From an uncultured Gammaproteobacteria bacterium (GTDB lineage: Bacteria > Patescibacteriota > Patescibacteriia > UBA2591 > UBA6264), in the NCBI GenBank assembly GCA_964596735.1, contig CAZQVF010000001.1, forward strand, positions 74,135 through 138,134: DNA of 64,000 nt, written 5' to 3'. Of this stretch, positions 30,531-47,446 are shown one piece after another. Each line of letters opens with the position of its first letter. Position 1 is the first letter of the stretch. The position numbers were made by a program, and so were the translations under genes. Below the pieces are notes generated by a model. That model had not been told where the DNA came from and did not search any database. It was given only the letters and a program-made list of their open reading frames with translations.

Positions 30531-30590
30531 TATTATAAAGTTGATAAAATCAAATATTTTTGATAGAATTATTATAGAATATATAATTGT

Positions 30591-31490
30591 ATGAAAACAA
30601 AAGATTTTAACCGAAAAAAAGAAGACTATTACAAAGGAGAGGCAGAAAAATGGGATCTTAGAGAGAGCTCATCTCGTCCCAGTCCAGAGAATGTTAAGCA
30701 TTATAATCAATTGGTGAAATCAGTTCTAGGCAATAAGAAAAATCCTAGAATTGTTGTTTTAGGATCAACGCCAGAAATCAGAGAGATGCTCTATAAATAC
30801 TATTTTCTTAATAAAGCAAAGATTATTTGTTTAGAACTTTTGCCAGCCATGTATTATGGAATGTCTAATTTAGTTAAACATAAATCTCCAAATGAAAAAT
30901 TTGTTCAAAGTGATTGGTTAAAAATGCCCTTTAAAAAAAACAGTATTGATATTTTTATTGGAGATTTAATCACGGGTAACATTTATAACAAGAAAGATAG
31001 AGAAAAATTATTAAGATTGATTAAAAAATGCTTAAAAAAGAATGGAGTTTTTCTTGAAAGACATCTTTACATAACTCCAAGGGTAAAAATAAAAGATGTT
31101 AAAAAACATTTATTTAGTTTTGTTCCAAAGATTATAAATGAAAAAATAAGCATTAATGCTGCGGCTACTTCTTTTTTGGCTAATTTGGTTGTTGCAAGTT
31201 GGTATCAGAACATAGAGAGGAAGCTTTCTATGATTTATTTTGAAAAAGAAATTAGAAAATTAAAAAAATATTTTCAAAAAAAGAATTTATCCTCTCAAGA
31301 CAGAATTGCCAAAGCCATATTTGATCACTTTCAGCTTTTAGGAGGAAAAAAAAGATATTGGACTTATGGGACCAAGGAACAGGAAGAAAAAGAATTAAGA
31401 GAATATTTTAAAATAGAAAAGAGATTATACGCTAAAGACTTTTATTCTGCGTCTAATGTGCCAATTTATTTATTAAGACCTAAAAAGTGA
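30591..31490 (+). CDS. array paralog 1: class I SAM-MTase-like protein (LGATPE family)
   Basis: Shares the family blocks: N-terminal W..W....RPS..E, RIVVLGSTPEIREML (motif I position), CLELLPAMYYGM (post-I), SDWLKMPFKKNSIDIFIGD (motif II-like), CLKKNGVFL (motif III-like), C-terminal IYLLRPKK. Confidence 0.8.
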   Translation: MKTKDFNRKKEDYYKGEAEKWDLRESSSRPSPENVKHYNQLVKSVLGNKKNPRIVVLGSTPEIREMLYKYYFLNKAKIICLELLPAMYYGMSNLVKHKSPNEKFVQSDWLKMPFKKNSIDIFIGDLITGNIYNKKDREKLLRLIKKCLKKNGVFLERHLYITPRVKIKDVKKHLFSFVPKIINEKISINAAATSFLANLVVASWYQNIERKLSMIYFEKEIRKLKKYFQKKNLSSQDRIAKAIFDHFQLLGGKKRYWTYGTKEQEEKELREYFKIEKRLYAKDFYSASNVPIYLLRPKK

Positions 31491-31491
31491 T

Positions 31492-32319
31492 ATGAAATCA
31501 TGGGATAATATTAAAAAATCAGAATGGCGAGGATTTGCTGAAAAATGGAGAGCTCTTAATCCCCCCTATAAACCCTCGAGAGAAAGAATAGATATTTATC
31601 ATTATTTAATTAAAAAATATGTTAAAGGCAATAAAGCTTTAGTTTTAGGGGCAACGCCTGAGATTAGAGATCTTTTAGCCAAACTAAAATTCAAAGTAAC
31701 TCTATTAGATATTAGCTTGCCAATGGTTAGGGCAATGACTTTTTTAAAAAAGACCAGGAATAAAGAAAAAATTGTTATTGGCAATTGGCTTAAGGCTAGG
31801 TTTAATGAAAAGTATGACCTAGTTATTGGTGATTCAGTGATTAATAATCTTTTGCCTGGTCAATACACTAAGTTTTTTAAACAGGTACAGAGATTTTTAA
31901 AAAATGACGGTATTTTTATTTCTCAAGGCGTTTTTTTATCAAAACCAATAAGTAAGCATAGAATTTCTATTAAACAGATTATTAATAAGGCAAAGAATAG
32001 GCCTGATTATTATAGAATTTATTCAAATAAGGCTTATGACTATTTAACATGGTCGGTTTCTCAGACTAAAAAGCATTTAGCTAATTTTGGAACATTGAAT
32101 GAGATCTGGCGCCAAAAATTGGAAAATGGACAGATAAGCAAAAAAGAATTTAAATTATTAGATTTTGATCTTCCTGAAGACTTGACAATCTCGTTTTTTA
32201 CCAAAAAAGAATTTGAAAGAACCCTTTGTAAATTTTGGCAAATACTTGATCAAACTCATGAAAAAAGCCATCGGGTTCACAAAGATTTTTATCGCATTTA
32301 TGTTTTAAAAAAGAAATAA
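31492..32319 (+). CDS. array paralog 2 (LGATPE MTase-like)
   Basis: ALVLGATPEIRDLLAK, TLLDISLPMVRAM, GNWLKARFNEKYDLVIGDSVINNL, FLKNDGIFIS, ...IYVLKKK; starts 1 nt after the previous stop. Confidence 0.85.
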   Translation: MKSWDNIKKSEWRGFAEKWRALNPPYKPSRERIDIYHYLIKKYVKGNKALVLGATPEIRDLLAKLKFKVTLLDISLPMVRAMTFLKKTRNKEKIVIGNWLKARFNEKYDLVIGDSVINNLLPGQYTKFFKQVQRFLKNDGIFISQGVFLSKPISKHRISIKQIINKAKNRPDYYRIYSNKAYDYLTWSVSQTKKHLANFGTLNEIWRQKLENGQISKKEFKLLDFDLPEDLTISFFTKKEFERTLCKFWQILDQTHEKSHRVHKDFYRIYVLKKK

Positions 32320-32320
32320 G

Positions 32321-33169
32321 ATGACAGTAAAAAATCCGAAAACAGAAACATGGAGAAAATTTATTGAAGGCTGGTCTAAATTGACCAGTCCGGGCCGACC
32401 AACAAAAAAAGAAATCATTATTTATAAAGAATTCGGATTGGCAAAACTAAAGAAAAAAGGGGCAAAAACTTTAGTCCTTGGCGCCACTCCTGAAATAAGG
32501 GATATGTTGGCAAAATATAATAATCTACAGGTTCATTTAATTGATATTAATATTGATAATTGTTTAGCAATGAGCGAGTTGATGGAAAATAAAACAGCAA
32601 AAGATGAAGAAACATGGATGAAGGCTAATTGGCTAAATAATCCTTTACCAGAAAATTATTTTGATTTAATTTACGGAGATTTTGTTGTTTGCAATGTTCC
32701 CTTTGAAAAGCAGAACAAATTTTTAGCCAATATTAAAGGATGGTTAAAAAAAGAAGGGTTGTTTATTACCCGTTGTACAAGCATAACCTCAGAATACAAA
32801 GAATTATCTTTAAGGGAATTTTGTCAGTTATTCAAAGATAAGCCGGTTAATCTAAAGACAATTAATCATTTTTGGGAATTAGGCGTTTACTTGGGAGAAA
32901 TTGCTGAAGAAAACAGGTTTAGTCCGGGCGTTTTTTATAAACGCTTAAGAAATTATCTTAGAAAACATCCTAATAAAAACATAGATAAAATATTAGAGGC
33001 TGGGGGATTTCTTTATCCCTTAGAATGGACCTGGTCTCTTTGTCCCAAAAAAAGAATTGAAAATTTGCTTTCAAAACATTTTGTGACTAAAAAAAGAGAA
33101 TTTGACACTAAAATGAATTTTATTTATCCGAATTTTTATCCTATTTATTGCTTGAAACCTAAAAAATAA
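32321..33169 (+). CDS. array paralog 3 (LGATPE MTase-like)
   Basis: TLVLGATPEIRDMLAKY, HLIDINIDNCLAM, ANWLNNPLPENYFDLIYGDFVVCNV, WLKKEGLFITR, IYCLKPKK. Confidence 0.85.
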   Translation: MTVKNPKTETWRKFIEGWSKLTSPGRPTKKEIIIYKEFGLAKLKKKGAKTLVLGATPEIRDMLAKYNNLQVHLIDINIDNCLAMSELMENKTAKDEETWMKANWLNNPLPENYFDLIYGDFVVCNVPFEKQNKFLANIKGWLKKEGLFITRCTSITSEYKELSLREFCQLFKDKPVNLKTINHFWELGVYLGEIAEENRFSPGVFYKRLRNYLRKHPNKNIDKILEAGGFLYPLEWTWSLCPKKRIENLLSKHFVTKKREFDTKMNFIYPNFYPIYCLKPKK

Positions 33170-33170
33170 T

Positions 33171-34040
33171 ATGGAAAAAAGAACAAAAATGTGGCAAAAG
33201 ATTACCCGAGATTATTGTAAGTTTGTTATTCCAAATCGGCCCAGTCTTGACGATACAAGGAATTATGCCATAGCCATTAATCAAGTATTAAAAAATAAAA
33301 AAGAACCCAAAATATTAGTGATGGGCTCAACCCCAGAGATACGCAGATTTTTGTTTACCTACACCTGTCTTTTTAATGCTCAAGTGTATTGCGTTGATTT
33401 TAGTCCAAATATGTATAAGTCAATGACAGATTTTATAAACAAAGCAGAGTTAAAAGAAAAATATATCAAGGCAAGCTGGTTAAAAACAGGGCTTAAAGAC
33501 AATTTTTTTGATTTAGCAGTGGGCGATGAAGTTATTTGTAATATTGAACCCAAAAAGCATAAAGGGCTTTTTCAAGAAACATCAAGAATCCTTAAAAAAG
33601 ACGGCTATTGGGTCACTCGACATAACATGTATCTTCCGAATCAAGCCAAACCCAAAACAATTATTTTAAACATTGTTAAAGATTTAAAACAAAAGAAATA
33701 CAGTTTTCAAGAAGCAATTCATTATCTTTTCATCACTTTATTTTACAGTCTGGTTCAAACAAACAAACAGCATCGACTTAATCAAGCAGAACAGATGAAA
33801 GAAATGAGAAAGGTATATAAAACCTTAAAAAATGATTTAGATAAAAGAGTATTAAAAGAATTGATTAAACATTTTCAAGGAAATTGGCAATCTACCTATA
33901 GTTATCATTGGTATGTATTGTCTAAAAAAGACAGTGAAAAAGAATTAAGAGAATTTTTTACTATTAAAAAGATTCTAACTCCTCGCGATTATATTACAGC
34001 CAAGAATTCACCGATTTATTTATTGAAAAATAGAAAATAA
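33171..34040 (+). CDS. array paralog 4 (LGATPE MTase-like)
   Basis: ILVMGSTPEIRRFL, YCVDFSPNMYKSM, ASWLKTGLKDNFFDLAVGDEVICNI, ILKKDGYWVTR, IYLLKNRK. Confidence 0.85.
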   Translation: MEKRTKMWQKITRDYCKFVIPNRPSLDDTRNYAIAINQVLKNKKEPKILVMGSTPEIRRFLFTYTCLFNAQVYCVDFSPNMYKSMTDFINKAELKEKYIKASWLKTGLKDNFFDLAVGDEVICNIEPKKHKGLFQETSRILKKDGYWVTRHNMYLPNQAKPKTIILNIVKDLKQKKYSFQEAIHYLFITLFYSLVQTNKQHRLNQAEQMKEMRKVYKTLKNDLDKRVLKELIKHFQGNWQSTYSYHWYVLSKKDSEKELREFFTIKKILTPRDYITAKNSPIYLLKNRK

Positions 34041-34057
34041 TAAGATATTTTAATTAT

Positions 34058-34902
34058 ATGGTAATTACAAAAAAACGAAAAAACGTTCAAGCCTGGTCAA
34101 AACAAATGGCACAAAATAGAAAAAAAGGAGACCACCAACTGCTCCTAGTATAAGCGAGCAGAAGATTTATGAAAAATTTTTAAAACAAGCTTTAAAAAAT
34201 AAAGAAAACCCTAAGGTTTTAATTTTAGGAGTTACCCCAGAGCTTCGCAATATTGCCTTAAAAAATAATTGCCAGGTTGTGTCTGTTGACATTAGTCGGG
34301 AAATAATAAAAGCAATGAAACCCTCAATAAAATATAAAGGGTTAAAAAGAGAAAAGATTATTAATGCTAACTGGCTTGCTGTTTCTTTTCCAAAGAATAG
34401 TTTTGATTTGGTAATGGGAGATGCACCCTTAACCAATCTTCTTTCTATTCATGATCTTAGAAAATTATTATTTAAAGTCCGGAGAGTATTAAAGCCAAGG
34501 GGTTTTTTCTTAATAAGAGAACTCATTCATTTATCAAATAAAAAAGCTCCATTTAAAAAAATAGTTTCTGATTATCGGAAGAATAAGATAAAATGGGAAG
34601 ATTTTTTTATGGACCTTAGATTTTATACGTTTTTTAATAAAGCCTATAATCCAAAAAATAACCTTCTTTCCGCTGATAAGATTTTTCAGGAAATTGAAAA
34701 AAAATATAAGCAAGGCGAGCTGACAAAGAAAGAATATCAAAGAATTATGATTCTTGAAAATCGAATGAAGAATTTAGTTTTATTTAAAGAAAAATTTATG
34801 AAATTAATCAAAGAAAATTTTTCCATTATTTCTATTAAAACAGATAAAGAATTTAAATTCTGTCAATATTTACCAATTTATTTGTTGAAAAATAGAAAGT
34901 AA
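34058..34902 (+). pseudogene. array paralog 5, frameshifted (or -1 frameshift-dependent) copy
   Basis: The N-terminus (MVITKKRKNVQAWSKQMAQN) reads in one frame to a TAA at 34151. The family-conserved continuation (RRPPTAPSISEQKIYEKF...VLILGVTPELRNIAL...) lies in the -1 frame, beginning inside a GAAAAAAAGG A7 run at 34120-34126. The track only reports the GTG-started C-terminal 207-aa piece. Confidence 0.7.
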
Positions 34903-34903
34903 T

Positions 34904-35749
34904 ATGGCTAAGAAAAAATTTAGTATAAAAATGAAACAGAGCTGGTTTCAAATTGCTGAGAAATGGAGAGAATATAATTATCCAGTTAAACCTTCTCCCA
35001 TGGAGACAAGATTTTTTGAAAAAGAAATAAAGGATTTATTAAAAAGGGAAAAGAGAATTAAAGCTTTAGTTTTAGGGGCAACCCCTGAATTTAGAGATTT
35101 ATTGGCTAAGCATAAAATAGACACTGTTTTAATTGATAATAATTTAACCTCTGTCAAGGCAATGACTTTTTTAATGAAAAGAAAGACTAAAAAAGAAAAA
35201 ATAGTGGTTGGGGATTGGTTAAAGATGCCTTTTAAAGAAAATACCTTTGATATAGTTTTCAGTGATTCTGCTCAGGACAATATTAAGTTTAAAAATTTCA
35301 ATAAGTTTTTTAATAATGTTTACCAAATTTTAAAGCCAGAGGGATATTGGTTTTTTGCTGCGGTTAATGTGGAAAAAAATCAAAGTATTTCTTTAAAAAA
35401 ATACATTAAAAAATACAAAGAAAAACCAAAGATTTTTAAAGATTTTAGAAATTTTGCTTCTTATTTTTTTCGAGTCGGTCGCGGTCCAGATTTTTATAAA
35501 CCCAAAACCAGAAGTTTTGATTTTGCTAAAATTGATCAAAGGGTAAAGGCCCTTATTGAGGAAGGTAAAATTTCTTCTAAAGCCCTTAAAGATATTTGTT
35601 TTCATTTAAATTATGAACAGGTTTTAATTGGTCAAACCGATTTTAAGAAAATGTTAAAAAAGAATTTTAATATTTTTAAAGAAATGAAAAAAGATAAACA
35701 TCCGGGCATGGAAATAAAGTGGGCGGCAATTTTAAAACCAAAGAAATAA
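34904..35749 (+). CDS. array paralog 6 (LGATPE MTase-like)
   Basis: ALVLGATPEFRDLLAKH, VLIDNNLTSVKAM, GDWLKMPFKENTFDIVFSDSAQDNI, ILKPEGYWFFA, ...AILKPKK. Confidence 0.85.
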   Translation: MAKKKFSIKMKQSWFQIAEKWREYNYPVKPSPMETRFFEKEIKDLLKREKRIKALVLGATPEFRDLLAKHKIDTVLIDNNLTSVKAMTFLMKRKTKKEKIVVGDWLKMPFKENTFDIVFSDSAQDNIKFKNFNKFFNNVYQILKPEGYWFFAAVNVEKNQSISLKKYIKKYKEKPKIFKDFRNFASYFFRVGRGPDFYKPKTRSFDFAKIDQRVKALIEEGKISSKALKDICFHLNYEQVLIGQTDFKKMLKKNFNIFKEMKKDKHPGMEIKWAAILKPKK

Positions 35750-35750
35750 T

Positions 35751-36638
35751 ATGGCCAAAAAGAAATTAGACAATCCTATTTGGGACGCAAAACAACAAAA
35801 ATGGTGGGAGTTTTTTTGGGGAGGAGTTAAAGCTCCTTGGCGACCGACAAAAAAGGAAATTAAATTTTGGGAAGGGAAAATTCAACAAGCTTTTAAAGAA
35901 AAAGATTTTTTACGTGTTTTAATTTTAGGGGCTACTCCAGAATTTAGAGACATGCTGACCAGGTATAAAGATAAAACAGAAGTGACCCTATTAGACGCAA
36001 ATCCGGCAGTTAAAGCAGCCATGGATAAGCTAAGGAAAAAGAGAAATTCTAAGGAAAGAATAGTTTGGGGTGATTGGCTAAAGATGCCCTTACCGTCTAA
36101 TTATTTTGACATTGTTTTTAGTGATGAAGTATTTGAGAATATTGCTTTGGAAAATCATGACAAGTTACATCAAAATATTAAACGGGTTTTGAAAAAAGAT
36201 GGTTATTTTTTAGATGGTCGGATTTGTTTAGAAGACTTTTTTAAACATCCCTTACATCTAGAACAAGTTTTAAGAAAATATAAAAGGGAGCCAAGGTTTT
36301 TCCACGATTCTTATAACCGGCTTTGGTATTTGTATCGTTTATGCCCTTCAGAAAAGCTCTTTTATAGTAAAAAAGAGCAAGCAGTTTTAATGAATAAAAA
36401 GGCAGCAGAAAAAGTATTTAATAGGGCTAAAAAAATAGGCATAAAAAACCCAAAATATTTAAATTGGGATCCAAGATTAGATTATAAGGAGCTTGATTAC
36501 AAGGAGATAGATTTAGCTAGTTTAAAAAGAGTAAAGTCAATGATTGGAAAATATTTTAAAATAGAAAAAACTTATCAGGATTTATTTCATCCAGTAATGA
36601 AAATAAAATATAATTTTGTCTGCCGTCCTAAAGAATAA
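35751..36638 (+). CDS. array paralog 7 (LGATPE MTase-like)
   Basis: VLILGATPEFRDMLTRY, TLLDANPAVKAAM, GDWLKMPLPSNYFDIVFSDEVFENI, VLKKDGYFLDG, ...FVCRPKE. Confidence 0.85.
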   Translation: MAKKKLDNPIWDAKQQKWWEFFWGGVKAPWRPTKKEIKFWEGKIQQAFKEKDFLRVLILGATPEFRDMLTRYKDKTEVTLLDANPAVKAAMDKLRKKRNSKERIVWGDWLKMPLPSNYFDIVFSDEVFENIALENHDKLHQNIKRVLKKDGYFLDGRICLEDFFKHPLHLEQVLRKYKREPRFFHDSYNRLWYLYRLCPSEKLFYSKKEQAVLMNKKAAEKVFNRAKKIGIKNPKYLNWDPRLDYKELDYKEIDLASLKRVKSMIGKYFKIEKTYQDLFHPVMKIKYNFVCRPKE

Positions 36639-36641
36639 AAT

Positions 36642-37499
36642 ATGGCAAAAAAAGGTTTAATTAATGGAAAAGAATGGGTGGATTATTTAAAATTTTGGTC
36701 GATTATGGCTCCGCCGGCCCGGCCCTCTAGTTTTGATATAAAGATTTGGGAGACATATATTAAAAAAATATTAAGACAAAAAAGAGATATTAAAGCTTTA
36801 GTTTTTGGCGCCACTCCTGAAATCCGCGATTTATTAGCTAAATATAAGATTTTCACTACTCTTTTAGATGTTAATCCAGCCATGATTAAAGGGTTGATGA
36901 AATTCATGAAGTATAAGAAGCAACGAAACGAGAAAGTAATTATTGATAATTGGCTAAAAATTAGAGAATTGTTTTCTGAAAATTCTTTTGATATAGTGAT
37001 GGGCCATGATTTTTTTAATAATATTCCTTGGAGTTCTCATAATAAATTAGCCAGCAGCATTAAATGGGTTTTAAAAAAAGATGGCTATGGATTAATTGTT
37101 TCTCCAATTTTAAGAAAAACAAAAAATTTGTCTAGCGAGCATTTTGTTACGCTATATAAAAAAAATCCAAAATACTTTAAAGAATTTTGTCATCGTTGGT
37201 ATGTAGTAGATGTTTTAAAAAAATTAGATTATAACAAAAGAACCAGACAGTTTTTTATAAAAAAAATAAAAGAACGTTTAATCAAAGAAGCAGAAAAACA
37301 AGGTTTGTCAGAAAAGGATATTAATCAGATGTGGGTTTTTAAAACATTTAATATAGCTGACAATTATATTGGAGTTCACCCGCCCTTAAAAGATTTATTA
37401 AATGTTTTTAAGAAATATTTTAAAATTGAGAAAATGTCTTATTGGTCAAAACAGGGGAACAAATCCCATTTTAATTTTGTTTTAAGACCTAAGAAATAA
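36642..37499 (+). CDS. array paralog 8 (LGATPE MTase-like)
   Basis: ALVFGATPEIRDLLAKY, TLLDVNPAMIKGLM, DNWLKIRELFSENSFDIVMGHDFFNNI, VLKKDGYGLIV, ...FVLRPKK. Confidence 0.85.
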   Translation: MAKKGLINGKEWVDYLKFWSIMAPPARPSSFDIKIWETYIKKILRQKRDIKALVFGATPEIRDLLAKYKIFTTLLDVNPAMIKGLMKFMKYKKQRNEKVIIDNWLKIRELFSENSFDIVMGHDFFNNIPWSSHNKLASSIKWVLKKDGYGLIVSPILRKTKNLSSEHFVTLYKKNPKYFKEFCHRWYVVDVLKKLDYNKRTRQFFIKKIKERLIKEAEKQGLSEKDINQMWVFKTFNIADNYIGVHPPLKDLLNVFKKYFKIEKMSYWSKQGNKSHFNFVLRPKK

Positions 37500-37502
37500 A
37501 AT

Positions 37503-38378
37503 ATGGCAAAACATAAGATAGACAATCCAGTTTGGCAAAAAAAAGAAGAATGGTGGTATAATGTTTGGAAAAAAGTTGAGCCACCATTTCATCCTTCAAA
37601 AGGGGAGGTGATGTTTTATGAAAAGGCAGTGAAAAAAACATTGAAACGAAAAAATCCAAAGGTTCTTGTTTTAGGAGCAACACCAGAAATCCGTGATATG
37701 TTAGCTAAATACAAAAAATTAGACGTTTATATTATAGACGCTGATGTTCCAGTTTATCGAGCCATGACCCGGTTAATGAAAAGAAAGAACAAACGAGAAA
37801 AATTAGTAGTTGGAGATTGGCTAAAAATGCCATTTAAAAAAGATACCTTTGATCTGAGTTTGAGCCACGGAGCTTTTTCTGTAATTAGTCTAAAAAATCA
37901 TGAAAGATTTTATAACAATATTAAAAGAGTAATTAAAAAAGATGGTTATATTGTAATGAGTCGGGTGAATGTCGAACCCTTTTTAAAAGAGCCAATTAGT
38001 TTTAAACAGATTATTGATAGATATAAAGAGGATCCAAAATATTTTAAAAGCCTTCAAAACAGAGTTTATATTTTATACCAATTGACCAGCCGACCAGGCT
38101 TATATAATTACAAAACCCAGAGCATTAAATATCATGTCATGGCTAGAAAATTAAGAGATTATGCTAGAAAACAAGGACTTTCAGAAAAGCAAATAAAAGG
38201 TCTGTATTTTACCCCAGATTTTGATGTGAATCTTAAAATTGATGACACAGAAATACAAACCCTTAAAAGACTAAAGACAATGATTAAAAAACATTTTATA
38301 ATTAAAGAAATATATCAGGATGATTATCACCCGGTGGCCAAAATATTTATTGATTTCTTATGTCAAAAAAGAAAATAG
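37503..38378 (+). CDS. array paralog 9 (LGATPE MTase-like); recent duplicate of paralog 10
   Basis: VLVLGATPEIRDMLAKY, YIIDADVPVYRAM, GDWLKMPFKKDTFDLSLSHGAFSVI, VIKKDGYIVMS, ...IFIDFLCQKRK; ends with the same ...FIDFLCQKRK tail as paralog 10. Confidence 0.85.
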   Translation: MAKHKIDNPVWQKKEEWWYNVWKKVEPPFHPSKGEVMFYEKAVKKTLKRKNPKVLVLGATPEIRDMLAKYKKLDVYIIDADVPVYRAMTRLMKRKNKREKLVVGDWLKMPFKKDTFDLSLSHGAFSVISLKNHERFYNNIKRVIKKDGYIVMSRVNVEPFLKEPISFKQIIDRYKEDPKYFKSLQNRVYILYQLTSRPGLYNYKTQSIKYHVMARKLRDYARKQGLSEKQIKGLYFTPDFDVNLKIDDTEIQTLKRLKTMIKKHFIIKEIYQDDYHPVAKIFIDFLCQKRK

Positions 38379-39238
38379 ACAACCCAATTTGGCAGAAAAA
38401 AGAAGAATGGTGGTATAATGTTTGGAAAAAAGTTGAACCGCCCTTTTGTCCTTCAAAGGGGCAGATTAAGTTTTATGAAAAGATAATAAAGAACAAAATA
38501 CTTAAACGTAAAAATCCCAGAATTCTTGTCTTAGGAGTCACACCGCAGATTCGTGATTTATTGGCTAAATACAAGAAACTAGATGTTTATTTAATTGATA
38601 TTGATGTGCCGGTTTATCGAGCGATGACTAGATTAGTGAAGAAAAAAAATCCTAGAGAAAAATTAATCGTCGGTGATTGGTTAAAAATGCCTTTTGAAAA
38701 AAATTATTTTGATTTAATCATGGCTCATAGTTCGTTTTCTGTCATTAGTTTAAAACACCATAAGTTGTTTTATCAGAATATTAAAAGGGTTCTTAAAAAA
38801 GATGGTTATGTTTTAATGAGTCGGGGAATATTGGAATTTGCTTTTAAAGACCCGATTAATTTTAAACAATTTTTTAATAAATACAAAAAAGACCCTAAAT
38901 ATTTTAAAAATTTTCAAAACAGAACATATATTTTATACCGATTAATCAATCGACCAGGAATCTATGACAGAAGGACACAGGGATTTAAATGGCATGTTAT
39001 GGCCAAAGGGTTGATGGATTATGGAAAAAGACAAGGATTTTCAGAAAAACAAATAAAAAGTCTTTATTTTCTTCCTGAGATAGGGCCAGAAGCAGTTTAT
39101 ACAGATACTGATATTGAAAGTGCAAAAAAAGTTAAATCAATGATTAGAAAACATTTTATAATCAAACAAATTCATCAGGATAATTATCACCCCATTGCTA
39201 AAATATTTATTGATTTTTTATGTCAAAAAAGAAAATAA
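38360..39238 (+). CDS. array paralog 10 (LGATPE MTase-like)
   Basis: About 70% identical by eye to paralog 9 along its whole length. The ATG start sits inside the last codons of paralog 9 (ATGTCAAAAAAGAAAATAG overlap). Confidence 0.85.
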   Translation: MSKKKIDNPIWQKKEEWWYNVWKKVEPPFCPSKGQIKFYEKIIKNKILKRKNPRILVLGVTPQIRDLLAKYKKLDVYLIDIDVPVYRAMTRLVKKKNPREKLIVGDWLKMPFEKNYFDLIMAHSSFSVISLKHHKLFYQNIKRVLKKDGYVLMSRGILEFAFKDPINFKQFFNKYKKDPKYFKNFQNRTYILYRLINRPGIYDRRTQGFKWHVMAKGLMDYGKRQGFSEKQIKSLYFLPEIGPEAVYTDTDIESAKKVKSMIRKHFIIKQIHQDNYHPIAKIFIDFLCQKRK

Positions 39239-40071
39239 GTGTAAAAGATTATGTTGAATTTTGGAAAAATCTTTATCCAGAGATAAAGCCGCTTCCTTCA
39301 ACAATTCAGTTTTGGGAAGATAAAATTAAAGAGATATTAAAGAAGAATAAGAATCCTCAGGCCTTGGTTTTAGGAGTGACCCCAGAAATCAGAGATTTAT
39401 TGACTAAGCATAAAATTAAGACAACCTGTTTAGACCTTAATCCAATAATGATTAAGGCAATGGAATCATTAGTTAAAAGGAAAAATCCTAAAGAAAGAAT
39501 TATTAAGGGTGATTGGCTAAAAATGCCATTTAAAAAAGATACTTTTGATTTTATTATCAGTGATTGCCCCCAAGATAATATTCCCTATAAGAGTTGGAAC
39601 AAATTTTTTCAAAGTGTTTTTCAGGTTTTAAAACCAAGCGGATATTGGTTATTAGGAGCAACTCTTTTTAAAGGTTTTAAAGAGGGAATTAATTTAAGTC
39701 AATTCATAGAAATTTATCGAAAAAATCCCAAGGTATTTACAAATTCGAAGCAAAAGTTTTATTATCTTCTTAAACTATCTAGTTGTCGTGATTTTAATAA
39801 TCGCAAGACCAAAACAGTTGATTGGATAAAGGTAGATAAAGAATTAGAAAAACTTTATAAAAAAGGATTAATCAACAGAAAAGAGTTAAATGATTTATCT
39901 ATATCTACAAAAAGTATTAAGTTAAGTTTGGCCTGTAAATGGCCCTGGGTTACCATGAATGAGTTTTGTAGAATTTTGAAAAAGAATCATTTTTATGTGA
40001 TAGGTTATAGAGAAGATGACATTTTTCCAGCTGGTTGTTTTCGCCAGGCTTTTATTTTAAAAAAACATTGA
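39220..40071 (+). CDS. array paralog 11 (LGATPE MTase-like)
   Basis: ALVLGVTPEIRDLLTKH, TCLDLNPIMIKAM, GDWLKMPFKKDTFDFIISDCPQDNI, VLKPSGYWLLGA; the start overlaps the paralog 10 stop with the same ATGTCAAAAAAGAAAATAAG junction. Confidence 0.85.
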   Translation: MSKKKISVKDYVEFWKNLYPEIKPLPSTIQFWEDKIKEILKKNKNPQALVLGVTPEIRDLLTKHKIKTTCLDLNPIMIKAMESLVKRKNPKERIIKGDWLKMPFKKDTFDFIISDCPQDNIPYKSWNKFFQSVFQVLKPSGYWLLGATLFKGFKEGINLSQFIEIYRKNPKVFTNSKQKFYYLLKLSSCRDFNNRKTKTVDWIKVDKELEKLYKKGLINRKELNDLSISTKSIKLSLACKWPWVTMNEFCRILKKNHFYVIGYREDDIFPAGCFRQAFILKKH

Positions 40072-40110
40072 AAATAAAGAAAAAGCCGTTTTGTAGCGGT
40101 TTGAAAATTT

Positions 40111-40965
40111 ATGACAAAAAAAATTAAAAAACAAAATAAAAAAACTTTTAATCCAGACTGGAAAAAATGGTCTGATTTTTGGAATAAAATTAAACCACCC
40201 TGGAAGCCTTCGGTTCAAGAAATAAGATTTATAAAATCAAGACTTAAAGTATTGGTTAAAAACAATCAACCACGAGCCCTGATTCAAGGCGCAACCCCAG
40301 ACTTTCGTGATTTATTAGCTGATTTAGGTTATCAGGTCTGGCTTTTAGACATAAACAAAGAAATGGTTGATGGTACGAGGCTGGTGATGAAGAATAAAAA
40401 TCCTAAAGAAAAAGTAAAGATTGGGAATTGGCTTGCCAAACCATTTAAAACAAACTATTTTGATGCTGTCTTAGCCGACGAAACTCTTGATAACTTAGCT
40501 TTAAAAACATATAACCAGTATTTTCAAAATATAAAAACGTTTCTTAAACCAGGTGGATATTTTATTTACGGGGCTTATTGCATGCCAGCCCGGACTCGCC
40601 AAATAAGTTTTGATGAGTTAGCTAAATTATATAATAAAGACCCGAAATTTTTTAAAAAATGGGAGAATAAATGTTATCTTTGGCACTGGGTGCAAGATAA
40701 ATCTAAAATCTTTGATCGTCGAAAATGGCAATATGATTTTACCTATTTTGATAACGAAATTCAAAAACTATATGATCAAGGGAAAATATCCAAGCAAGGC
40801 TTAAAAGATTTACAATATAAGATGGGGGCATATCAGAGTGTTCATCTATACCGCAAAGATTTAGAGATTCGACTTAAAAAGTATTTTAAAATTTTAAACA
40901 TTTGGGTTGTTCCAAAGATGAAGTATCATAATAAGATAGTTTACGTTTTAAAAGTTCAAAAATAA
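40111..40965 (+). CDS. array paralog 12 (LGATPE MTase-like)
   Basis: ALIQGATPDFRDLLADL, WLLDINKEMVDG, GNWLAKPFKTNYFDAVLADETLDNL, FLKPGGYFIYGA. Confidence 0.85.
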   Translation: MTKKIKKQNKKTFNPDWKKWSDFWNKIKPPWKPSVQEIRFIKSRLKVLVKNNQPRALIQGATPDFRDLLADLGYQVWLLDINKEMVDGTRLVMKNKNPKEKVKIGNWLAKPFKTNYFDAVLADETLDNLALKTYNQYFQNIKTFLKPGGYFIYGAYCMPARTRQISFDELAKLYNKDPKFFKKWENKCYLWHWVQDKSKIFDRRKWQYDFTYFDNEIQKLYDQGKISKQGLKDLQYKMGAYQSVHLYRKDLEIRLKKYFKILNIWVVPKMKYHNKIVYVLKVQK

Positions 40966-41019
40966 GAACCCTTCGCTACGCTCAGGAACCTTGAAATTAA
41001 AACTTTATTTTATAAATAT
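40964..41019 (+). promoter_or_regulatory. conserved CTTGAAATTAAA promoter-like element (internal to the array)
   Basis: AAGAACCCTTCGCTACGCTCAGGAACCTTGAAATTAAAACTTTATTTTATAAAT in the 74-nt gap between paralogs 12 and 13; same architecture as the copies at 1879, 4839 and 19449. Confidence 0.55.
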
Positions 41020-41039
41020 TAAGGTAGTTTAATTATAAT

Positions 41040-41891
41040 ATGACTAAAAAAGAATCAACTAGCAAAAAATTTATAGATCCCTGGAAAACAATGGCAAATA
41101 ATTGGAATCTATTTTGTTCTCCTGGTCGACCTTCATCAAGAAATATCTTAGATTATGAAAAACTTTTTCAATCTACAGTTAAAAAAAGAAAAAATCCCAA
41201 GATATTAATTTTAGGGGCAACGCCAGAACTGAGAGACCTTTTAAATAAATTTAAAAAAGCAGAAGTATGTATTTGTGATATTAATATAGAAATGATTTTA
41301 GCCATGACAGAATTGATGAAAAAGAAAAAAGCAGTGGAAAGGGAAATATGGATGAAAGCCAATTGGAAAGACATGCCTTTAAAGAAAGATTATTATGATG
41401 TTATCTTGGGCGATTACATTACCAGCGCTTTTCCCTTAAAAGATCACGCAGAATTATTTAATAAATTAAGATCAGTTTTAAATAAAAATGGTTGTTTTGT
41501 TAGCAGGATCTTTTTTTACAATCCAGATGCAGTAGAAGATTTTAATCAAGTAGCGGATAAATATTTAAACAAAAAAGTAACCCCTAGGACAATAACTGAT
41601 TTTTGGATGGAGGCATATTTCCGCGGTCCGTATAGAAAAGGGGGAGTTCTTTCAGGCAAGAGATTTAAAGAAAAAATGAATATTTACGTAAAAAAGAACC
41701 CCAAAATCAAGCCACTTTTCAATAAACTTGATCAAATATTATTGCCATATAATAAGGATTATAATTTTTGTAGCTTAAAACAAACTGAAAAATCATTAAA
41801 GAGATATTTTGTAATCAAAGAAAAATTACCAGAGATTAACACCACCTTAAGCAAAAATACATTTATATATAAATTATCTCCAAAGAAATAA
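41040..41891 (+). CDS. array paralog 13 (LGATPE MTase-like)
   Basis: ILILGATPELRDLLNKF, CICDINIEMILAM, ANWKDMPLKKDYYDVILGDYITSAF, hydrophobic core block after it. Confidence 0.85.
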   Translation: MTKKESTSKKFIDPWKTMANNWNLFCSPGRPSSRNILDYEKLFQSTVKKRKNPKILILGATPELRDLLNKFKKAEVCICDINIEMILAMTELMKKKKAVEREIWMKANWKDMPLKKDYYDVILGDYITSAFPLKDHAELFNKLRSVLNKNGCFVSRIFFYNPDAVEDFNQVADKYLNKKVTPRTITDFWMEAYFRGPYRKGGVLSGKRFKEKMNIYVKKNPKIKPLFNKLDQILLPYNKDYNFCSLKQTEKSLKRYFVIKEKLPEINTTLSKNTFIYKLSPKK

Positions 41892-41892
41892 T

Positions 41893-42744
41893 ATGACAAA
41901 ACAAATTCATGGCACAAAATATTGGACAGATTTAGCTCAATGGTGGCGAAAGGTTGCTCCACCGGTTAGACCATCAAAGTCGGATATTAAGATTTATGAG
42001 AGATTTTTAAAAAAGGTAATTAAGAACAAGAAACAACCCAAAATTTTAATTTTAGGAGCGACACCGGAAATGCGAGATTTAGCCGCTAAGTATAGAGCGG
42101 AAACAACTGTTTGTGATATTAGTTTGGAAATGATAATAGCTATGATTCAGTTGATGACTCATAAAAAGGCTGGCCAAAAAGAAGTTTGGGTTAAAGCAAG
42201 TTGGGTGACAGTACCATTGAAACATAATTATTACGATGTGATTTTAGCAGATGGGGTGATATGTAATATCCCCTGGTCAGAAGTAAATCAATGGTGGAAA
42301 CATTTAAATCAATTACTTAAACCAAAGGGTGTTTTTATCACCCGAGCCTTCTGTTTTACCTCTAGAAATGAGATTGATAAAAGTTTGAATAATCTTATTA
42401 AGAAGATTTTAAAAAAGAGAAATCCTTTAGCAACCGATTTTGGTCAATTGAAAATAACTTTAGAAATCGCAAGTTATAATTCTAAAACTAGAACGGGCAG
42501 TAATGCCAAGTATAGAGAATTATTTTTTAAACATATTGAGAATTTTTCAGTTTTTCAAACAAAGGCAAACAAGATTTATCGTCAACTTGTTAAGATTTAT
42601 CCACCTAAGCCAGTTAAAGTTTGGCGAATACCAACAAGAGCTCAGAGAGAAAAAGAAATTAAAAAGTATTTTAAGATTATTTTTGGTATTCCTTCTCCAT
42701 CTTTTCCAACTATACCGACAATTTATTTATTAAAGAAAAAATAA
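41893..42744 (+). CDS. array paralog 14 (LGATPE MTase-like)
   Basis: ILILGATPEMRDLAAKY, TVCDISLEMIIAM, ASWVTVPLKHNYYDVILADGVICNI, LLKPKGVFITRAF. Confidence 0.85.
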   Translation: MTKQIHGTKYWTDLAQWWRKVAPPVRPSKSDIKIYERFLKKVIKNKKQPKILILGATPEMRDLAAKYRAETTVCDISLEMIIAMIQLMTHKKAGQKEVWVKASWVTVPLKHNYYDVILADGVICNIPWSEVNQWWKHLNQLLKPKGVFITRAFCFTSRNEIDKSLNNLIKKILKKRNPLATDFGQLKITLEIASYNSKTRTGSNAKYRELFFKHIENFSVFQTKANKIYRQLVKIYPPKPVKVWRIPTRAQREKEIKKYFKIIFGIPSPSFPTIPTIYLLKKK

Positions 42745-42745
42745 C

Positions 42746-43621
42746 ATGCCTAAGAAAAAACAAGAAAAAAGATTTATTGCCCCCTGGAAAGCCTATGCTG
42801 CTCGTTGGCAAAAATACTGTACTCCACCAGGCCGGCCATCTAAACAAGCCATGGCCATGTATCGCAAATTTGCCAAACAATCTTTTTCTAATTTAAAACG
42901 CAAACCACGAACCTTGGTTTTAGGAGCGACTCCAGAGGCAAGAGATGTTTTAGTTGGGCTTAAAGCAGAGGTCAGTATTATTGATTTTAATATGGAAATG
43001 ATTTTAGCCATGACAGAATTGGTTAAAAAGAAAAATCCCAATGAGATTATAGTTAAAGCAAATTGGCTTAATATGCCCTTCCCCCCTAATTATTATGACG
43101 CTGTGTTAGGGGATCTTGTTTTATGCAATGTGCCCGGACCATTACAAGCCAGGTTTTTAAAAGAAGTCAAAAGAGTTTTAAAACCGAAAGGATATTTTAT
43201 CACTAAAATGCATGTTATTCCTAACGATTGGCAGTTTAAACCCATTGATTGGGTTTTGGATAAATATGCTAAAATCCCTGTTTGTAAAAATACAGCTATT
43301 GAACTATTTGGGTTTCTTCATAACACCATTTATCAGCCAAAAACCCATATAATGGATATTAGCCTAATTAGAAAAGGATTAACAAAGTATTGGAAAAAAG
43401 GAAAGTATAAACATCCTAGTGCCAAGATTAGTAAATTACTTAATCATATTTGGGAGATGTTTAAGCCCATGGACAAAACATGGTGTACAGGCTATGAAAA
43501 AGAAATTAGCAAACAGGTTTCCCAATATTTTAAAATCCGAAAGAAAATAGTTTTAAACGATTGTTATTTCCGTGAGATTGATGAATCATTTCCTTTTTGG
43601 GTTTGCCAAGTAAAAAAATAA
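42746..43621 (+). CDS. array paralog 15 (LGATPE MTase-like)
   Basis: TLVLGATPEARDVLVGL, SIIDFNMEMILAM, ANWLNMPFPPNYYDAVLGDLVLCNV, VLKPKGYFITK. Confidence 0.85.
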   Translation: MPKKKQEKRFIAPWKAYAARWQKYCTPPGRPSKQAMAMYRKFAKQSFSNLKRKPRTLVLGATPEARDVLVGLKAEVSIIDFNMEMILAMTELVKKKNPNEIIVKANWLNMPFPPNYYDAVLGDLVLCNVPGPLQARFLKEVKRVLKPKGYFITKMHVIPNDWQFKPIDWVLDKYAKIPVCKNTAIELFGFLHNTIYQPKTHIMDISLIRKGLTKYWKKGKYKHPSAKISKLLNHIWEMFKPMDKTWCTGYEKEISKQVSQYFKIRKKIVLNDCYFREIDESFPFWVCQVKK

Positions 43622-43622
43622 T

Positions 43623-44465
43623 ATGTTAAAACCCCATGAGCTAAATAGATCTTATTGGATGCGAAGTGCTGAGATTTGGCGCAAGTTAAAGCCGCCAGAA
43701 AGGCCCAGTAAAGAGGAAATGGGGATTTATGAAAAACACCTTAAAGAAATATTGCAGTTTAAAGGTAATAAATTAAGAGCTGTTATTCTTGGAGCTACTC
43801 CAGAAATTCGAGATTTATTAGCCAGATATAAAGTTTCAGACGTTACTATTGTTGATGTTAATCCTAATATGGTTCGGGCGATGAAAGAATTACTTAAAAT
43901 CTCAAAGGGCAGAGAGAAAATAGTCATTGCTAGTTGGTTAAATACGGGGTTGCCGTCTCATAAATATGATGTGGTTTTCTGTGATCACGGTACAGCCCAC
44001 ATCAAGTTTCTTCAGTGGCCTAAATTTTTTAAGGAACAAAAAAGATTTTTAAAAAAGAATGGCTTTGTTTTACATAATATCGTTACTCGGCCATTTAAGG
44101 AGGGCATCACGGTAAGTGATTTAGTTAAAATTTATAAGAAAAATAAATTAAAATTTTCTCGTCTTGATAAATTTTATTATAATTATTTAGTTTTTCTAAA
44201 ATTGAAAGATGTGAATGGAAAACACCACAAAGATTTAGGAGTTCTTGATAAAAATTTAAAAAGTTTTATCAATAAAAAGGTGATTGATAAAAATGATTAT
44301 CAAAAATTAAAGACTCCATGGGAAGATGCAAAAATTGCTCTTCCTCCGCAGGAGGTTGTTGATGAGATTTTTCAGAAATTTTTTAATTTAAAAACATTAG
44401 AACATGGATCAAAACACCCGATTTATAGTTGTCATCAAATATACTTTGGTCAAGTAAAAAAATAA
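43623..44465 (+). CDS. array paralog 16 (LGATPE MTase-like)
   Basis: AVILGATPEIRDLLARY, TIVDVNPNMVRAM, ASWLNTGLPSHKYDVVFCDHGTAHI, FLKKNGFVLHN. Confidence 0.85.
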   Translation: MLKPHELNRSYWMRSAEIWRKLKPPERPSKEEMGIYEKHLKEILQFKGNKLRAVILGATPEIRDLLARYKVSDVTIVDVNPNMVRAMKELLKISKGREKIVIASWLNTGLPSHKYDVVFCDHGTAHIKFLQWPKFFKEQKRFLKKNGFVLHNIVTRPFKEGITVSDLVKIYKKNKLKFSRLDKFYYNYLVFLKLKDVNGKHHKDLGVLDKNLKSFINKKVIDKNDYQKLKTPWEDAKIALPPQEVVDEIFQKFFNLKTLEHGSKHPIYSCHQIYFGQVKK

Positions 44466-44470
44466 AGTCT

Positions 44471-44764
44471 ATGAAAATTAAAATACCACCTGTTTCCATT
44501 GACACTGACAAACTAATTAAGCGCTGTGGTTATGCTGAGTTAAGAAGAAAAACAGGGGAGATAAGTTATGTTCGTCGTTTACGTGGTTATCAATACCCAC
44601 GCTTTCATGTTTATATTGAAAATGGATATTTTAATCTTCACTTAGATCAAAAGGCCCCTTGTTATCAAGGGTCTTCAGCTCACGCCGGAGAATATGAGGG
44701 AGAAATTTTAGTAAAAGAAAAAGAAAGAATAAAAGAGATCATTAATAAGTATAGAAATGAATAA
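44471..44764 (+). CDS. hypothetical 97-aa protein, unrelated insert within the array
   Basis: MKIKIPPVSIDTDKLIKRCGYAEL...RFHVYIENGYFNLHLDQKAPCYQGSSAHAGEYEG; none of the paralog blocks are present. The track calls it from 44429, overlapping the upstream gene; the ATG at 44471 was preferred. Confidence 0.4.
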   Translation: MKIKIPPVSIDTDKLIKRCGYAELRRKTGEISYVRRLRGYQYPRFHVYIENGYFNLHLDQKAPCYQGSSAHAGEYEGEILVKEKERIKEIINKYRNE

Positions 44765-46427: not shown

Positions 46428-46432
46428 ATATC

Positions 46433-46461
46433 TCGACAAATATCTTATTTTTACATATAAT
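46433..46461 (+). promoter_or_regulatory. sigma70-type promoter (TCGACA-N17-TATAAT)
   Basis: TCGACA, a 17-nt spacer, then TATAAT in the 66-nt gap before the Nif3-like gene. Confidence 0.5.
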
Positions 46462-46493
46462 TAAGAACAAGATTTATTTTTAACTATATATTT

Positions 46494-47444: not shown

Positions 47445-47446
47445 AT

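What the first reader, a model, noticed from the sequence alone, without database searches (positions are those of the whole stretch)
34058..34902. Array paralog interrupted at an A7 slippery run: pseudogene, sequencing indel or -1 frameshift site
The N-terminal 31 codons (MVITKKRKNVQAWSKQMAQNRKKGDHQLLLV*) read through GAAAAAAAGG at 34120-34126 and stop at 34151. The family-conserved continuation (RRPPTAPSISEQKIYEKFLK...VLILGVTPELRNIAL...) is in the -1 frame starting exactly within the A run. Adding one A (A7 to A8), or a -1 slip on A-AAA-AAA, restores a full-length paralog. A homopolymer length error is the trivial explanation. A real frameshift would mean the array is decaying or is regulated by slippage.
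Basis: seen in the sequence. Interest (0 to 1): 0.5.

Follow-up and report, generated by a model that had tools for sequence, protein, structure and literature searches.

The report
Real one-base deletion breaks a methyltransferase gene
One gene in a long row of related methyltransferase genes of an uncultured Patescibacteria bacterium has really lost one A from a run of A's; its counterparts in related genomes are unbroken, so this is most likely an ordinary, recent gene inactivation and not a programmed frameshift.

Summary
ATG 34058 opens a 31-codon frame that runs through A7 (34120-34126) to TAA 34151-34153. The rest of the gene (to 34902) is open in the -1 frame, and adding one A gives a 281-aa class I SAM methyltransferase.

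It is not an assembly error. Eight assembly records from at least four metagenome samples carry the identical A7, and the A8 product is absent from a 15-billion-protein collection. The other 92 A7/A8 runs counted in plus-strand genes here are in frame.

It is not a conserved recoding site. Seven syntenic orthologs (42-88% identity) are contiguous and have no long A run at this position (for example AGA AAG AAA AGA AGA).

The window-specific substitutions are 6 nonsynonymous and 10 synonymous, all in the out-of-frame part. So the gene was translated as one protein for most of its lineage, and the deletion is recent.

Stimulators are weak. A hairpin starts 12 nt downstream (fourth of 100 A runs), and there is no upstream Shine-Dalgarno-like sequence or hairpin. 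Seven A's is below the roughly 9-nt transcriptional slippage threshold.

Best reading: a young, fixed frameshift pseudogene made by homopolymer slippage. Leaky rescue or phase variation cannot be excluded without reads. Low interest.

The parts
34058..34153 (+). 5' segment of the broken methyltransferase gene, frame 0: ATG, 31 codons, premature TAA at 34151-34153
   Evidence: Translation. Codons 1-23 are homologous to the N-termini of the orthologs. Gene callers report it as a 31-aa ORF on 7 contigs.
34120..34126 (+). A7 run, the site of the one-base deletion. It is phased as A_AAA_AAA in frame 0.
   Evidence: Orthologs read AGA AAA AAG AGG.. / AGA AAG AAA AGA AGA / AGA ATG AAG AGG AGG at this position. 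The window reads AGA AAA AAA -GG AGA.
34126..34902 (+). 3' segment in the -1 frame (open from 34120), encoding the whole methyltransferase fold; stop TAA at 34900-34902
   Evidence: One search gives the translation. Pfam Methyltransf_31/25/11 score above gathering cut-offs on the repaired protein. Identity to P0001-P0003 is 85-88%. All 16 window-specific substitutions lie here, 6 nonsynonymous and 10 synonymous.
34279..34902 (+). 207-aa ORF from the first canonical start (GTG) in the -1 frame. This is what gene callers annotate. It lacks strand beta1 and the invariant G58/T60/P61/E62/R64 SAM-binding loop.
   Evidence: P0004/P0010. Invariant columns are from alignment A1. Secondary structure is from the AF2 model of the ortholog.
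34139..34161 (+). Local RNA hairpin CUGCUCCU-AGUAUA-AG(C)GAGCAG, starting 12 nt after the A run
   Evidence: -9.9 to -10.6 kcal/mol, z = -2.9 to -4.1. It ranks 4th of 100 A>=7 runs for downstream structure. It is partly present in the contiguous ortholog L016 and absent in L012 and L014.
30591..48289 (+). Context: a tandem array of 17 single-domain class I SAM methyltransferase genes of about 280 aa (this one included) plus one fused two-domain gene (44757-46427). A NIF3-like gene (46494-47444) lies inside it.

Best explanation
This is a genuine one-base deletion, fixed in the sampled population, in a Lys/Arg-coding A-rich stretch. The ancestral sequence was probably AGA AAA AAA AGG AGA (A8) or AGA AAA AAG AGG AGA, encoding N-R-K-K-R-R-P-P. 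The deletion most likely arose by replication slippage on the homopolymer. It puts codons 24-281 of a conserved 'core' member of a tandem class I SAM methyltransferase array out of frame. Ribosomes starting at ATG 34058 terminate at TAA 34151 after 31 codons. No canonical start in the -1 frame precedes GTG 34279, which lies beyond the SAM-binding loop. The gene is therefore functionally inactivated, a very young pseudogene. At most about 1% of full-length product would arise from unprogrammed slippage on A7.

Shown here: the deletion is real, the orthologs are contiguous, there is no conserved recoding signal, and the downstream frame was under purifying selection for most of the lineage. Inferred: the replication-slippage origin, the loss of function, and the low rescue level.
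For: 1. Reality of the deletion. An identical A7 occurs in 8 assembly records made by three pipelines (JGI 3300009314, 3300009320, 3300009332 and 3300009374; ENA ERZ23499038, ERZ23499040 and ERZ23499057; Logan SRR8062331). Two of them carry their own private variants, so they are separate assemblies. The split products occur on 12 and 7 contig records. The exact A8 product is absent from about 15 billion proteins.
2. Homopolymers are otherwise assembled correctly. Of the 93 A>=7 runs counted in plus-strand genes, only this one breaks a frame.
3. Orthologs. P0001-P0003 (85-88% identity), P0005-P0007 (57-59%) and P0008 (42%) are all contiguous at 274-283 aa. Those on contigs long enough to show neighbours lie in the same position: a Cys/Met PLP enzyme, a 289-aa methyltransferase, then this gene. 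None has a long A run at the site.
4. Selection. The window-specific changes are 6 nonsynonymous and 10 synonymous, where neutrality predicts 81% nonsynonymous (P = 1.7e-4). This does not differ from the sister branches (33 and 46; Fisher p = 0.79). Pairwise dN/dS is 0.14-0.22. The frameshift therefore occupies only the most recent part of the branch.
5. Recoding signals. There is no upstream structure or Shine-Dalgarno-like element. The downstream hairpin starts 12 nt away, whereas stimulators generally start 5-8 nt downstream (PMC4066793). A_AAA_AAA in this same phase occurs 45 times in intact genes of the window.
6. Run length. Selection against slippage-prone runs typically begins at 9 nt (PMC1088944). 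In this window runs are capped at 8.
Against: Apart from the single indel the gene shows no decay: no second indel, no stop in 260 codons, and a low N/S ratio. That is also what a still-functional 'pseudo-pseudogene' would look like. With only 16 lineage-specific substitutions, the absence of a stop carries no information (P = 0.37 under neutrality).

The gene is a conserved core member whose nearest paralog in the genome is only 36% identical, so redundancy is not obvious.

The hairpin after the run is in the top 4% for this window, and a window-specific synonymous change (CAA to CAG) lengthens it by one pair.

Consensus assemblies cannot show a minority A8 allele.
Confidence: 0.68

Rival explanations
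1. Leaky 'pseudo-pseudogene'. The DNA frameshift is real, but a useful amount of full-length enzyme is still made. This would happen through -1 ribosomal slippage on A_AAA_AAA, helped by the 34139-34161 hairpin, and/or insertion of one A by RNA polymerase on the A7 run. The gene would then stay under selection at reduced dosage.
For: The heptamer phase is correct. A_AAA_AAA gives more than 0.1% frameshifting in E. coli without stimulators and is used by IS elements. The downstream hairpin has z = -2.9 to -4.1 and ranks 4th of 100, and a lineage-specific synonymous change extends it. The -1 frame is intact with N/S = 0.6. A precedent exists in endosymbiont genes frameshifted in poly(A) tracts and rescued by transcriptional slippage without faster evolution (PMC3017870).
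Against: The run is 7 nt, whereas the known rescue cases use 9-12 nt, or 8 in some organisms. The hairpin spacer is 12 nt and not 5-8. The hairpin largely pre-exists in a contiguous ortholog. There is no upstream stimulator. No ortholog shares the frameshift or the run. The same heptamer occurs 45 times in phase in intact genes here, so it cannot be very shifty.
Confidence: 0.17
2. Phase-variable (contingency) switch. The A tract toggles between A7 (OFF) and A8 (ON) by replication slippage, so subpopulations express different subsets of the methyltransferase array.
For: In a related population another array member is A9 (intact) in two assemblies and A8 (split) in a third, on contigs that are otherwise 99.97% identical. 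One assembly of this population has a private one-base deletion splitting w32321. Both homopolymer events lie in the 5' part of the gene.
Against: All 8 assembly records at this locus show A7, and no A8 product exists anywhere. A7/A8 is short for a high-rate switch. A-run density in the array matches its lysine content (2.46 against 1.42 per kb, with Lys 15.8% against 11.5%), and the runs are not concentrated at 5' ends (8 of 40 in the first 120 nt, about 5.6 expected). Tracts are not conserved between orthologs. The w32321 variant is in an A4 run, not a long tract.
Confidence: 0.1
3. Sequencing or assembly artefact. The true genome has A8 and the gene is intact.
For: Homopolymer length errors are the commonest indel artefact. 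All the assemblies come from one clonal population and probably one sequencing project.
Against: Eight assembly records from at least four samples and three pipelines agree. Twenty-three A8 and 76 other A7 runs in the same 64 kb are assembled, and the 92 others that lie in plus-strand genes are in frame. The A8 product was never called in any public assembly.
Confidence: 0.03
4. A conserved programmed -1 frameshift, or programmed transcriptional realignment, that regulates this gene family.
For: Only the slippery heptamer itself and its phase support this.
Against: All seven orthologs are contiguous, with the run broken by G's or other codons. All 16 other single-domain paralogs and the fused two-domain gene in the window are contiguous. 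The 31-aa frame-0 product ends in nine unconserved residues.
Confidence: 0.02

Closest known systems
Homopolymer-tract frameshift pseudogenes in AT-rich reduced genomes (Buchnera and Blochmannia; PMC3017870)
   Same: An AT-rich small genome with a high density of poly(A) runs from AAA lysine codons. There is a single indel inside an A run in an otherwise intact gene, with no detectable rate acceleration.
   Different: The tract here is 7 nt, not 9-12. The frameshift is seen in one clonal population only and is not shared between species. No transcript evidence exists. The host is a free-living or episymbiotic Patescibacteria bacterium, not an insect endosymbiont.
'Pseudo pseudogenes' rescued by transcriptional slippage (Baranov et al. 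2005, PMC1088944)
   Same: A disrupted ORF whose frame would be restored by adding one A to an A run.
   Different: Those cases rest on runs of 9 A/T, or 8 in a few genomes. This window shows avoidance starting at 9, which places A7 below the likely slippage threshold.
Bacterial -1 programmed ribosomal frameshifting (dnaX; IS1 and IS3 transposases; PMC4066793)
   Same: An A_AAA_AAA heptamer in the correct phase, with a hairpin downstream.
   Different: There is no conservation, no upstream Shine-Dalgarno-like stimulator, and a 12-nt spacer where 5-8 nt is usual. The zero-frame product is a meaningless 31-mer. The gene is not from a mobile element.
Phase-variable methyltransferases switched by simple-sequence repeats (phasevarions; from my own knowledge, not looked up here)
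   Same: A methyltransferase ORF switched off by a length change in a repeat tract near its 5' end.
   Different: Those are DNA methyltransferases of restriction-modification systems with long, conserved and demonstrably polymorphic tracts. This is a small-molecule-type class I methyltransferase with a short, non-conserved tract that is monomorphic in all the assemblies.

Membership tests
Class I SAM-dependent methyltransferase (Pfam Methyltransf_11/25/31) | Profile match above the curated cut-off over the Rossmann-type core | tested here: met
   On the repaired protein, Methyltransf_31 scores 43.8 bits (cut-off 27), Methyltransf_25 scores 41.5 (27) and Methyltransf_11 scores 40.2 (21.2).
Class I SAM-dependent methyltransferase (Pfam Methyltransf_11/25/31) | Seven-stranded methyltransferase fold with a glycine-containing SAM-binding loop after beta1 | tested here: met
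   The AF2 model of ortholog P0002 has pLDDT 90.9. The top PDB fold hits are all SAM methyltransferases (E about 1e-11). G58, T60 and P61 are invariant in 24 family members.
Class I SAM-dependent methyltransferase (Pfam Methyltransf_11/25/31) | Methyl transfer activity and substrate | not testable with these tools
   No specific NCBIfam equivalog reaches its cut-off.
Programmed -1 ribosomal frameshift site | X_XXY_YYZ slippery heptamer in the zero-frame phase | tested here: met
   A_AAA_AAA at 34120-34126, with codons AGA AAA AAA.
Programmed -1 ribosomal frameshift site | A stimulatory structure starting 5-8 nt downstream, or a Shine-Dalgarno-like element upstream | tested here: not met
   The hairpin starts 12 nt downstream. 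It ranks 4th of 100 among A runs, which is unremarkable. There is no upstream structure or Shine-Dalgarno-like sequence.
Programmed -1 ribosomal frameshift site | The frameshift and the heptamer are conserved among orthologs | tested here: not met
   All seven orthologs are contiguous and lack the run.
Transcriptional-slippage-rescued gene ('pseudo-pseudogene') | An A/T run long enough for efficient RNA polymerase slippage (usually at least 9, sometimes 8) | tested here: not met
   The run is 7 nt. The window has no A run of 9 or more on the + strand, which fits a threshold near 9.
Transcriptional-slippage-rescued gene ('pseudo-pseudogene') | The frameshift persists across diverged strains or species without gene decay | tested here: inconclusive
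   It is fixed in one clonal population (all loci at least 99.9% identical). The nearest other lineage (92% nt identity) is intact. N/S is low, but the age of the frameshift is unknown.
Transcriptional-slippage-rescued gene ('pseudo-pseudogene') | A heterogeneous mRNA pool containing the corrected length | not testable with these tools
   There is no access to reads.
Simple-sequence-repeat phase-variable gene | Tract length polymorphic between or within samples | tested here: not met
   All 8 assembly records show A7 and no A8 product exists. Minority alleles could not be tested.
Frameshift pseudogene | A disabling indel relative to intact orthologs, with no in-frame restart that preserves the catalytic core | tested here: met
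   The first canonical -1-frame start is GTG 34279, at residue 75, past the SAM-binding loop.
Frameshift pseudogene | Relaxed selection or further lesions | tested here: not met
   There is no further indel or stop, and the changes are 6 nonsynonymous and 10 synonymous. If this is a pseudogene, it is therefore a very recent one.

The most novel reading that the evidence does not exclude
The A7 frameshift could be a working dosage or ON/OFF device in an uncultured Patescibacteria bacterium. Under this reading, low-level slippage (ribosomal -1 on A_AAA_AAA with the 34139-34161 hairpin, or insertion of an A by RNA polymerase) or A7/A8 switching in the population keeps this conserved core methyltransferase expressed in a fraction of transcripts or cells. 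The A8/A9 polymorphism in another array member of a related population would then be a second example of homopolymer-controlled expression in this gene array.
Probability: 0.12. Interest if true: 0.45.

Novelty: new member of a known kind. Interest (0 to 1): 0.15.

Why it matters
As it stands, this matters mainly for annotation. The 31-aa and 207-aa ORFs reported for this locus in public assemblies are two pieces of one frameshifted gene, and they should not be counted as a truncated methyltransferase family or a small protein. The case also shows that members of this large, uncharacterised methyltransferase array in Patescibacteria are individually dispensable, at least in the short term, and that A-run indels are how they get knocked out. 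If rescue by slippage or phase variation were shown, it would be a first hint of homopolymer-controlled gene expression in this phylum. Nothing found here requires that.

Tried and rejected
- **Restart downstream of the frameshift.** The AGGAG directly after the A run is just the Arg-Arg codons (AGG AGA), and no ATG, GTG or TTG lies 5-10 nt downstream in the -1 frame. The first canonical start is GTG 34279. ATA 34150 and ATT 34165 are too far away and are non-canonical. Rejected.
- **Alternative genetic code.** The frame-0 stop is TAA and many further stops follow, so reassignment of UGA would not help. Rejected.
- **Upstream nascent-RNA hairpin for programmed transcriptional slippage.** None was found (z about -0.1).
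- **Enrichment of A runs in the array or at 5' ends as a designed switch.** The density is explained by lysine content, and there is no 5' bias.
- **Conservation of A runs between orthologs.** Most turn over through AAA/AAG changes.
- **Organism name.** A scan of GTDB genomes with the repaired protein found nothing. A GyrB scan gave only 55-63% matches, mostly to Patescibacteria MAGs, so no close reference genome exists.
- **Family function.** Sequence and fold searches of the PDB gave only generic small-molecule class I methyltransferases.
- **Literature.** Searches for the sample accessions and for methyltransferase arrays in Patescibacteria found nothing relevant.
- **DNA search for an A8 allele.** The exact-protein look-up served in its place.

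Full report
**Observation.** ATG is at 34058. Frame 0 reads MVITKKRKNVQAWSKQMAQNRKKGDHQLLLV and stops at TAA 34151-34153. The A7 run occupies 34120-34126 in the context AAT AGA AAA AAA GGA. The -1 frame is closed by TAG at 34117-34119 and then open from 34120 to TAA 34900-34902. Adding one A to the run gives a 281-aa protein. It aligns over its full length with the neighbouring paralogs, including the family's N-terminal W...PPxxPS motif that straddles the break. It scores above Pfam gathering cut-offs for class I SAM methyltransferase domains.

**It is real, not an assembly error.** Exact-protein look-ups with the two flanking genes returned contigs from many assemblies. Eight records cover the site: JGI 3300009314, 3300009320, 3300009332 and 3300009374; ENA ERZ23499038, ERZ23499040 and ERZ23499057; and Logan SRR8062331. 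All eight have the identical A7, and gene callers split the locus into 31 aa and 207 aa in every one. The contigs are 99.95-100% identical to the window, so this is one clonal population. Two of them carry private variants, which shows they were assembled from different read sets. Some ENA and Logan records may be re-assemblies of JGI reads, so I claim only at least four independent samples.

The repaired 281-aa sequence is absent from a collection of about 15 billion proteins. The 207-aa and 31-aa pieces are found there on 12 and 7 contig records. The window holds 77 A7 and 23 A8 runs. Of these, 93 lie in the plus-strand genes I counted, and only this one breaks a frame.

**Orthologs.** A search with the repaired protein found P0001, P0002 and P0003 (88, 87 and 85% identity), P0005-P0007 (57-59%) and P0008 (42%). 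All are contiguous proteins of 274-283 aa. P0001, P0002 and P0007 lie on contigs long enough to show synteny: a Cys/Met PLP enzyme, a 289-293-aa methyltransferase, this gene, then further methyltransferases, a NIF3-like gene and a radical SAM gene. The DNA at the site is as follows:

| Source | Sequence at the site |
|---|---|
| L012 | AGA AAA AAG AGG AAG AAG AGA |
| L014 | AGA AAG AAA AGA AGA CCA |
| L016 | AGA ATG AAG AGG AGG CCG |
| L101 | CGC AAG AAA AGA AAA |
| L104, L105 | CGT AAG AAA AGA AGA |
| L106 | AGG ACT CAA AGA CGA |
| Window | AGA AAA AAA -GG AGA CCA |

The window therefore carries a lineage-specific one-base deletion relative to N-R-K-K-R-R-P-P. Neither the frameshift nor a long A run is conserved.

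**Selection.** I built a codon alignment of the repaired gene with the three close orthologs. The window has 16 private substitutions, all downstream of the break: 6 nonsynonymous and 10 synonymous. Random mutation of this ORF would be 81% nonsynonymous, so neutrality along the whole terminal branch is rejected (binomial P = 1.7e-4). The ratio does not differ from the other three terminal branches (33 and 46; Fisher p = 0.79). Pairwise dN/dS is 0.14-0.22. The -1 frame was therefore translated as part of a selected protein for most of the time since the split from the nearest relative (dS about 0.24). The deletion is either recent or tolerated. My rough estimate, made by hand from the 6:10 count and not run as a tool call, puts an inactivating event in the last quarter or so of the branch. 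The absence of new stop codons carries no information, since P = 0.37 even if all 16 changes were neutral.

**Recoding signals.** The heptamer A_AAA_AAA is in the right phase for a -1 slip. In E. coli this motif gives frameshifting only of the order of 0.1-0.5% without stimulators, and stimulatory structures generally start 5-8 nt downstream (PMC4066793).
- Upstream of the run there is no structure (z about -0.1) and no Shine-Dalgarno-like element.
- Downstream there is a hairpin at 34139-34161 of -9.9 to -10.6 kcal/mol (z = -2.9 to -4.1), but it starts 12 nt after the run.
- The hairpin ranks only 4th among the 100 A>=7 runs of the window for downstream structure.
- It is largely present in the contiguous ortholog L016. 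One window-specific synonymous change (CAA to CAG) adds a base pair to it. I note this but cannot distinguish it from chance.
- The same in-phase heptamer occurs 45 times in intact genes of this window, so it cannot be strongly shifty in this organism.

For transcriptional slippage, selection against A/T runs typically starts at 9 nt (PMC1088944). The documented endosymbiont rescues involve tracts of 9-12 nt (PMC3017870). In this window runs stop at 8, with a single T9. A7 is therefore probably below the threshold.

**Could a truncated product work?** The first canonical start in the -1 frame is GTG 34279, at residue 75. Alignment A1 (24 family members) has invariant residues P30, G58, T60, P61 and R64 and nearly invariant E62, all upstream of that start. 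In the AF2 model of ortholog P0002 (pLDDT 90.9), residues 53-57 form strand beta1 and 58-62 the SAM-binding loop. The 207-aa ORF would lack these. From the established architecture of class I methyltransferases, it should not bind SAM.

**Context.** GyrB matches best to Patescibacteria (CPR) MAGs, at only 55-63% identity. The window encodes bacterial DnaG, sigma-70, FtsZ and GroEL, and its GC content is 33.5%. The array holds 17 single-domain genes plus one fused two-domain gene. Seven members, including the broken one, have 1:1 orthologs in relatives whose arrays hold only 5-7 genes. The other members are deep paralogs at no more than 43% identity. The broken gene is therefore a conserved core member (nearest paralog 36% identical), and the array as a whole is not decaying.

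Two other disruptions were seen in the family. In a related population an A9 tract (intact in L102 and L103) is A8 in L101, which splits the ortholog of w41040. One assembly of this population has a private A4-to-A3 deletion that splits w32321. A-run density in the array follows its lysine content and is not biased towards 5' ends. The runs turn over between orthologs. I therefore read these events as sporadic knock-outs, or errors in low-coverage contigs, and not as a designed switch.

**Verdict.** The most likely explanation (about 0.68) is a recent one-base deletion, fixed in the population, that arose by homopolymer slippage and inactivates one member of the array. The main rivals are leaky rescue by slippage (about 0.17) and A7/A8 phase variation (about 0.10), and both need read-level or expression data. 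An assembly artefact (about 0.03) and a conserved programmed frameshift (about 0.02) are effectively excluded. The phenomenon is of a well-known kind, so interest is low.

Noticed in passing
window 30591-48289: A tandem array of 17 single-domain class I SAM methyltransferase genes of about 280 aa, plus a fused two-domain 556-aa gene (44757-46427). Only 7 members have 1:1 orthologs (67-92% aa identity) in the related contigs L012, L014 and L102, whose arrays hold 5-7 genes. The other members are deep paralogs (at most 43% identity), except w37503 and w38360 at 68%. The substrate is unknown; fold hits are generic small-molecule methyltransferases.
   Followed up: partly
L101:4205-5055 compared with L102:3080-3931 and L103:4156-5007: In a related population, the ortholog of w41040 has an A9 tract (intact, two assemblies) or an A8 tract (split into 36 aa and 262 aa; this contig was seen in two samples). 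The contigs are otherwise 99.97% identical.
   Followed up: partly
window 32652 (L008, ENA ERZ23499038): One sample's assembly has a private one-base deletion (GAAAAT to GAAAT) that splits array member w32321 (32321-33169) into 115-aa and 136-aa ORFs. It also has a SNP at 35484. L009 has a synonymous SNP at 34671 inside the frameshifted gene.
   Followed up: partly
whole window: Homopolymer runs appear capped. There are 208 A6, 77 A7 and 23 A8 runs but no A run of 9 or more on the + strand. The only run of 9 or more is T9 at 49310-49318, which is A9 in the sense strand of the minus-strand ORF 49227-49736. Extrapolating the decline by hand predicts roughly 7-10 runs of 9 or more, so this fits selection against slippage-prone tracts of 9 nt or longer.
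   Followed up: partly
window 52948-56625: The pyruvate phosphate dikinase / PEP-utilising enzyme gene is interrupted by an intein with a LAGLIDADG endonuclease domain (Pfam Intein_splicing and LAGLIDADG_3).
   Followed up: no
window 6817-11430: A 1537-aa ORF with no Pfam match at E <= 1e-5.
   Followed up: no
window 44429-44764: A small ORF (111 aa, TTG start) overlaps the start of the two-domain methyltransferase gene. A 96-97-aa ORF sits in the equivalent position in L012 and L014, just before the last core methyltransferase. In L101-L103 it sits after the last methyltransferase, and in L101 and L102 the next gene is NIF3. No Pfam match.
   Followed up: no
window 30560-30587: A near-consensus sigma-70-type promoter match (TTGATA, 16 nt, TATAAT) lies immediately upstream of the first array gene. 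The array genes are separated by only 1-4 nt in many places, which suggests one long, translationally coupled operon. If so, the premature stop at 34151 could have polar effects on w34904.
   Followed up: no
L012:7780-8499 and L014:6786-7505: In the relatives, a guanylate kinase gene on the opposite strand sits inside the methyltransferase array. It is not at the corresponding position in the window, where three extra methyltransferase genes (34904-37499) lie between the frameshifted gene and w37503.
   Followed up: no
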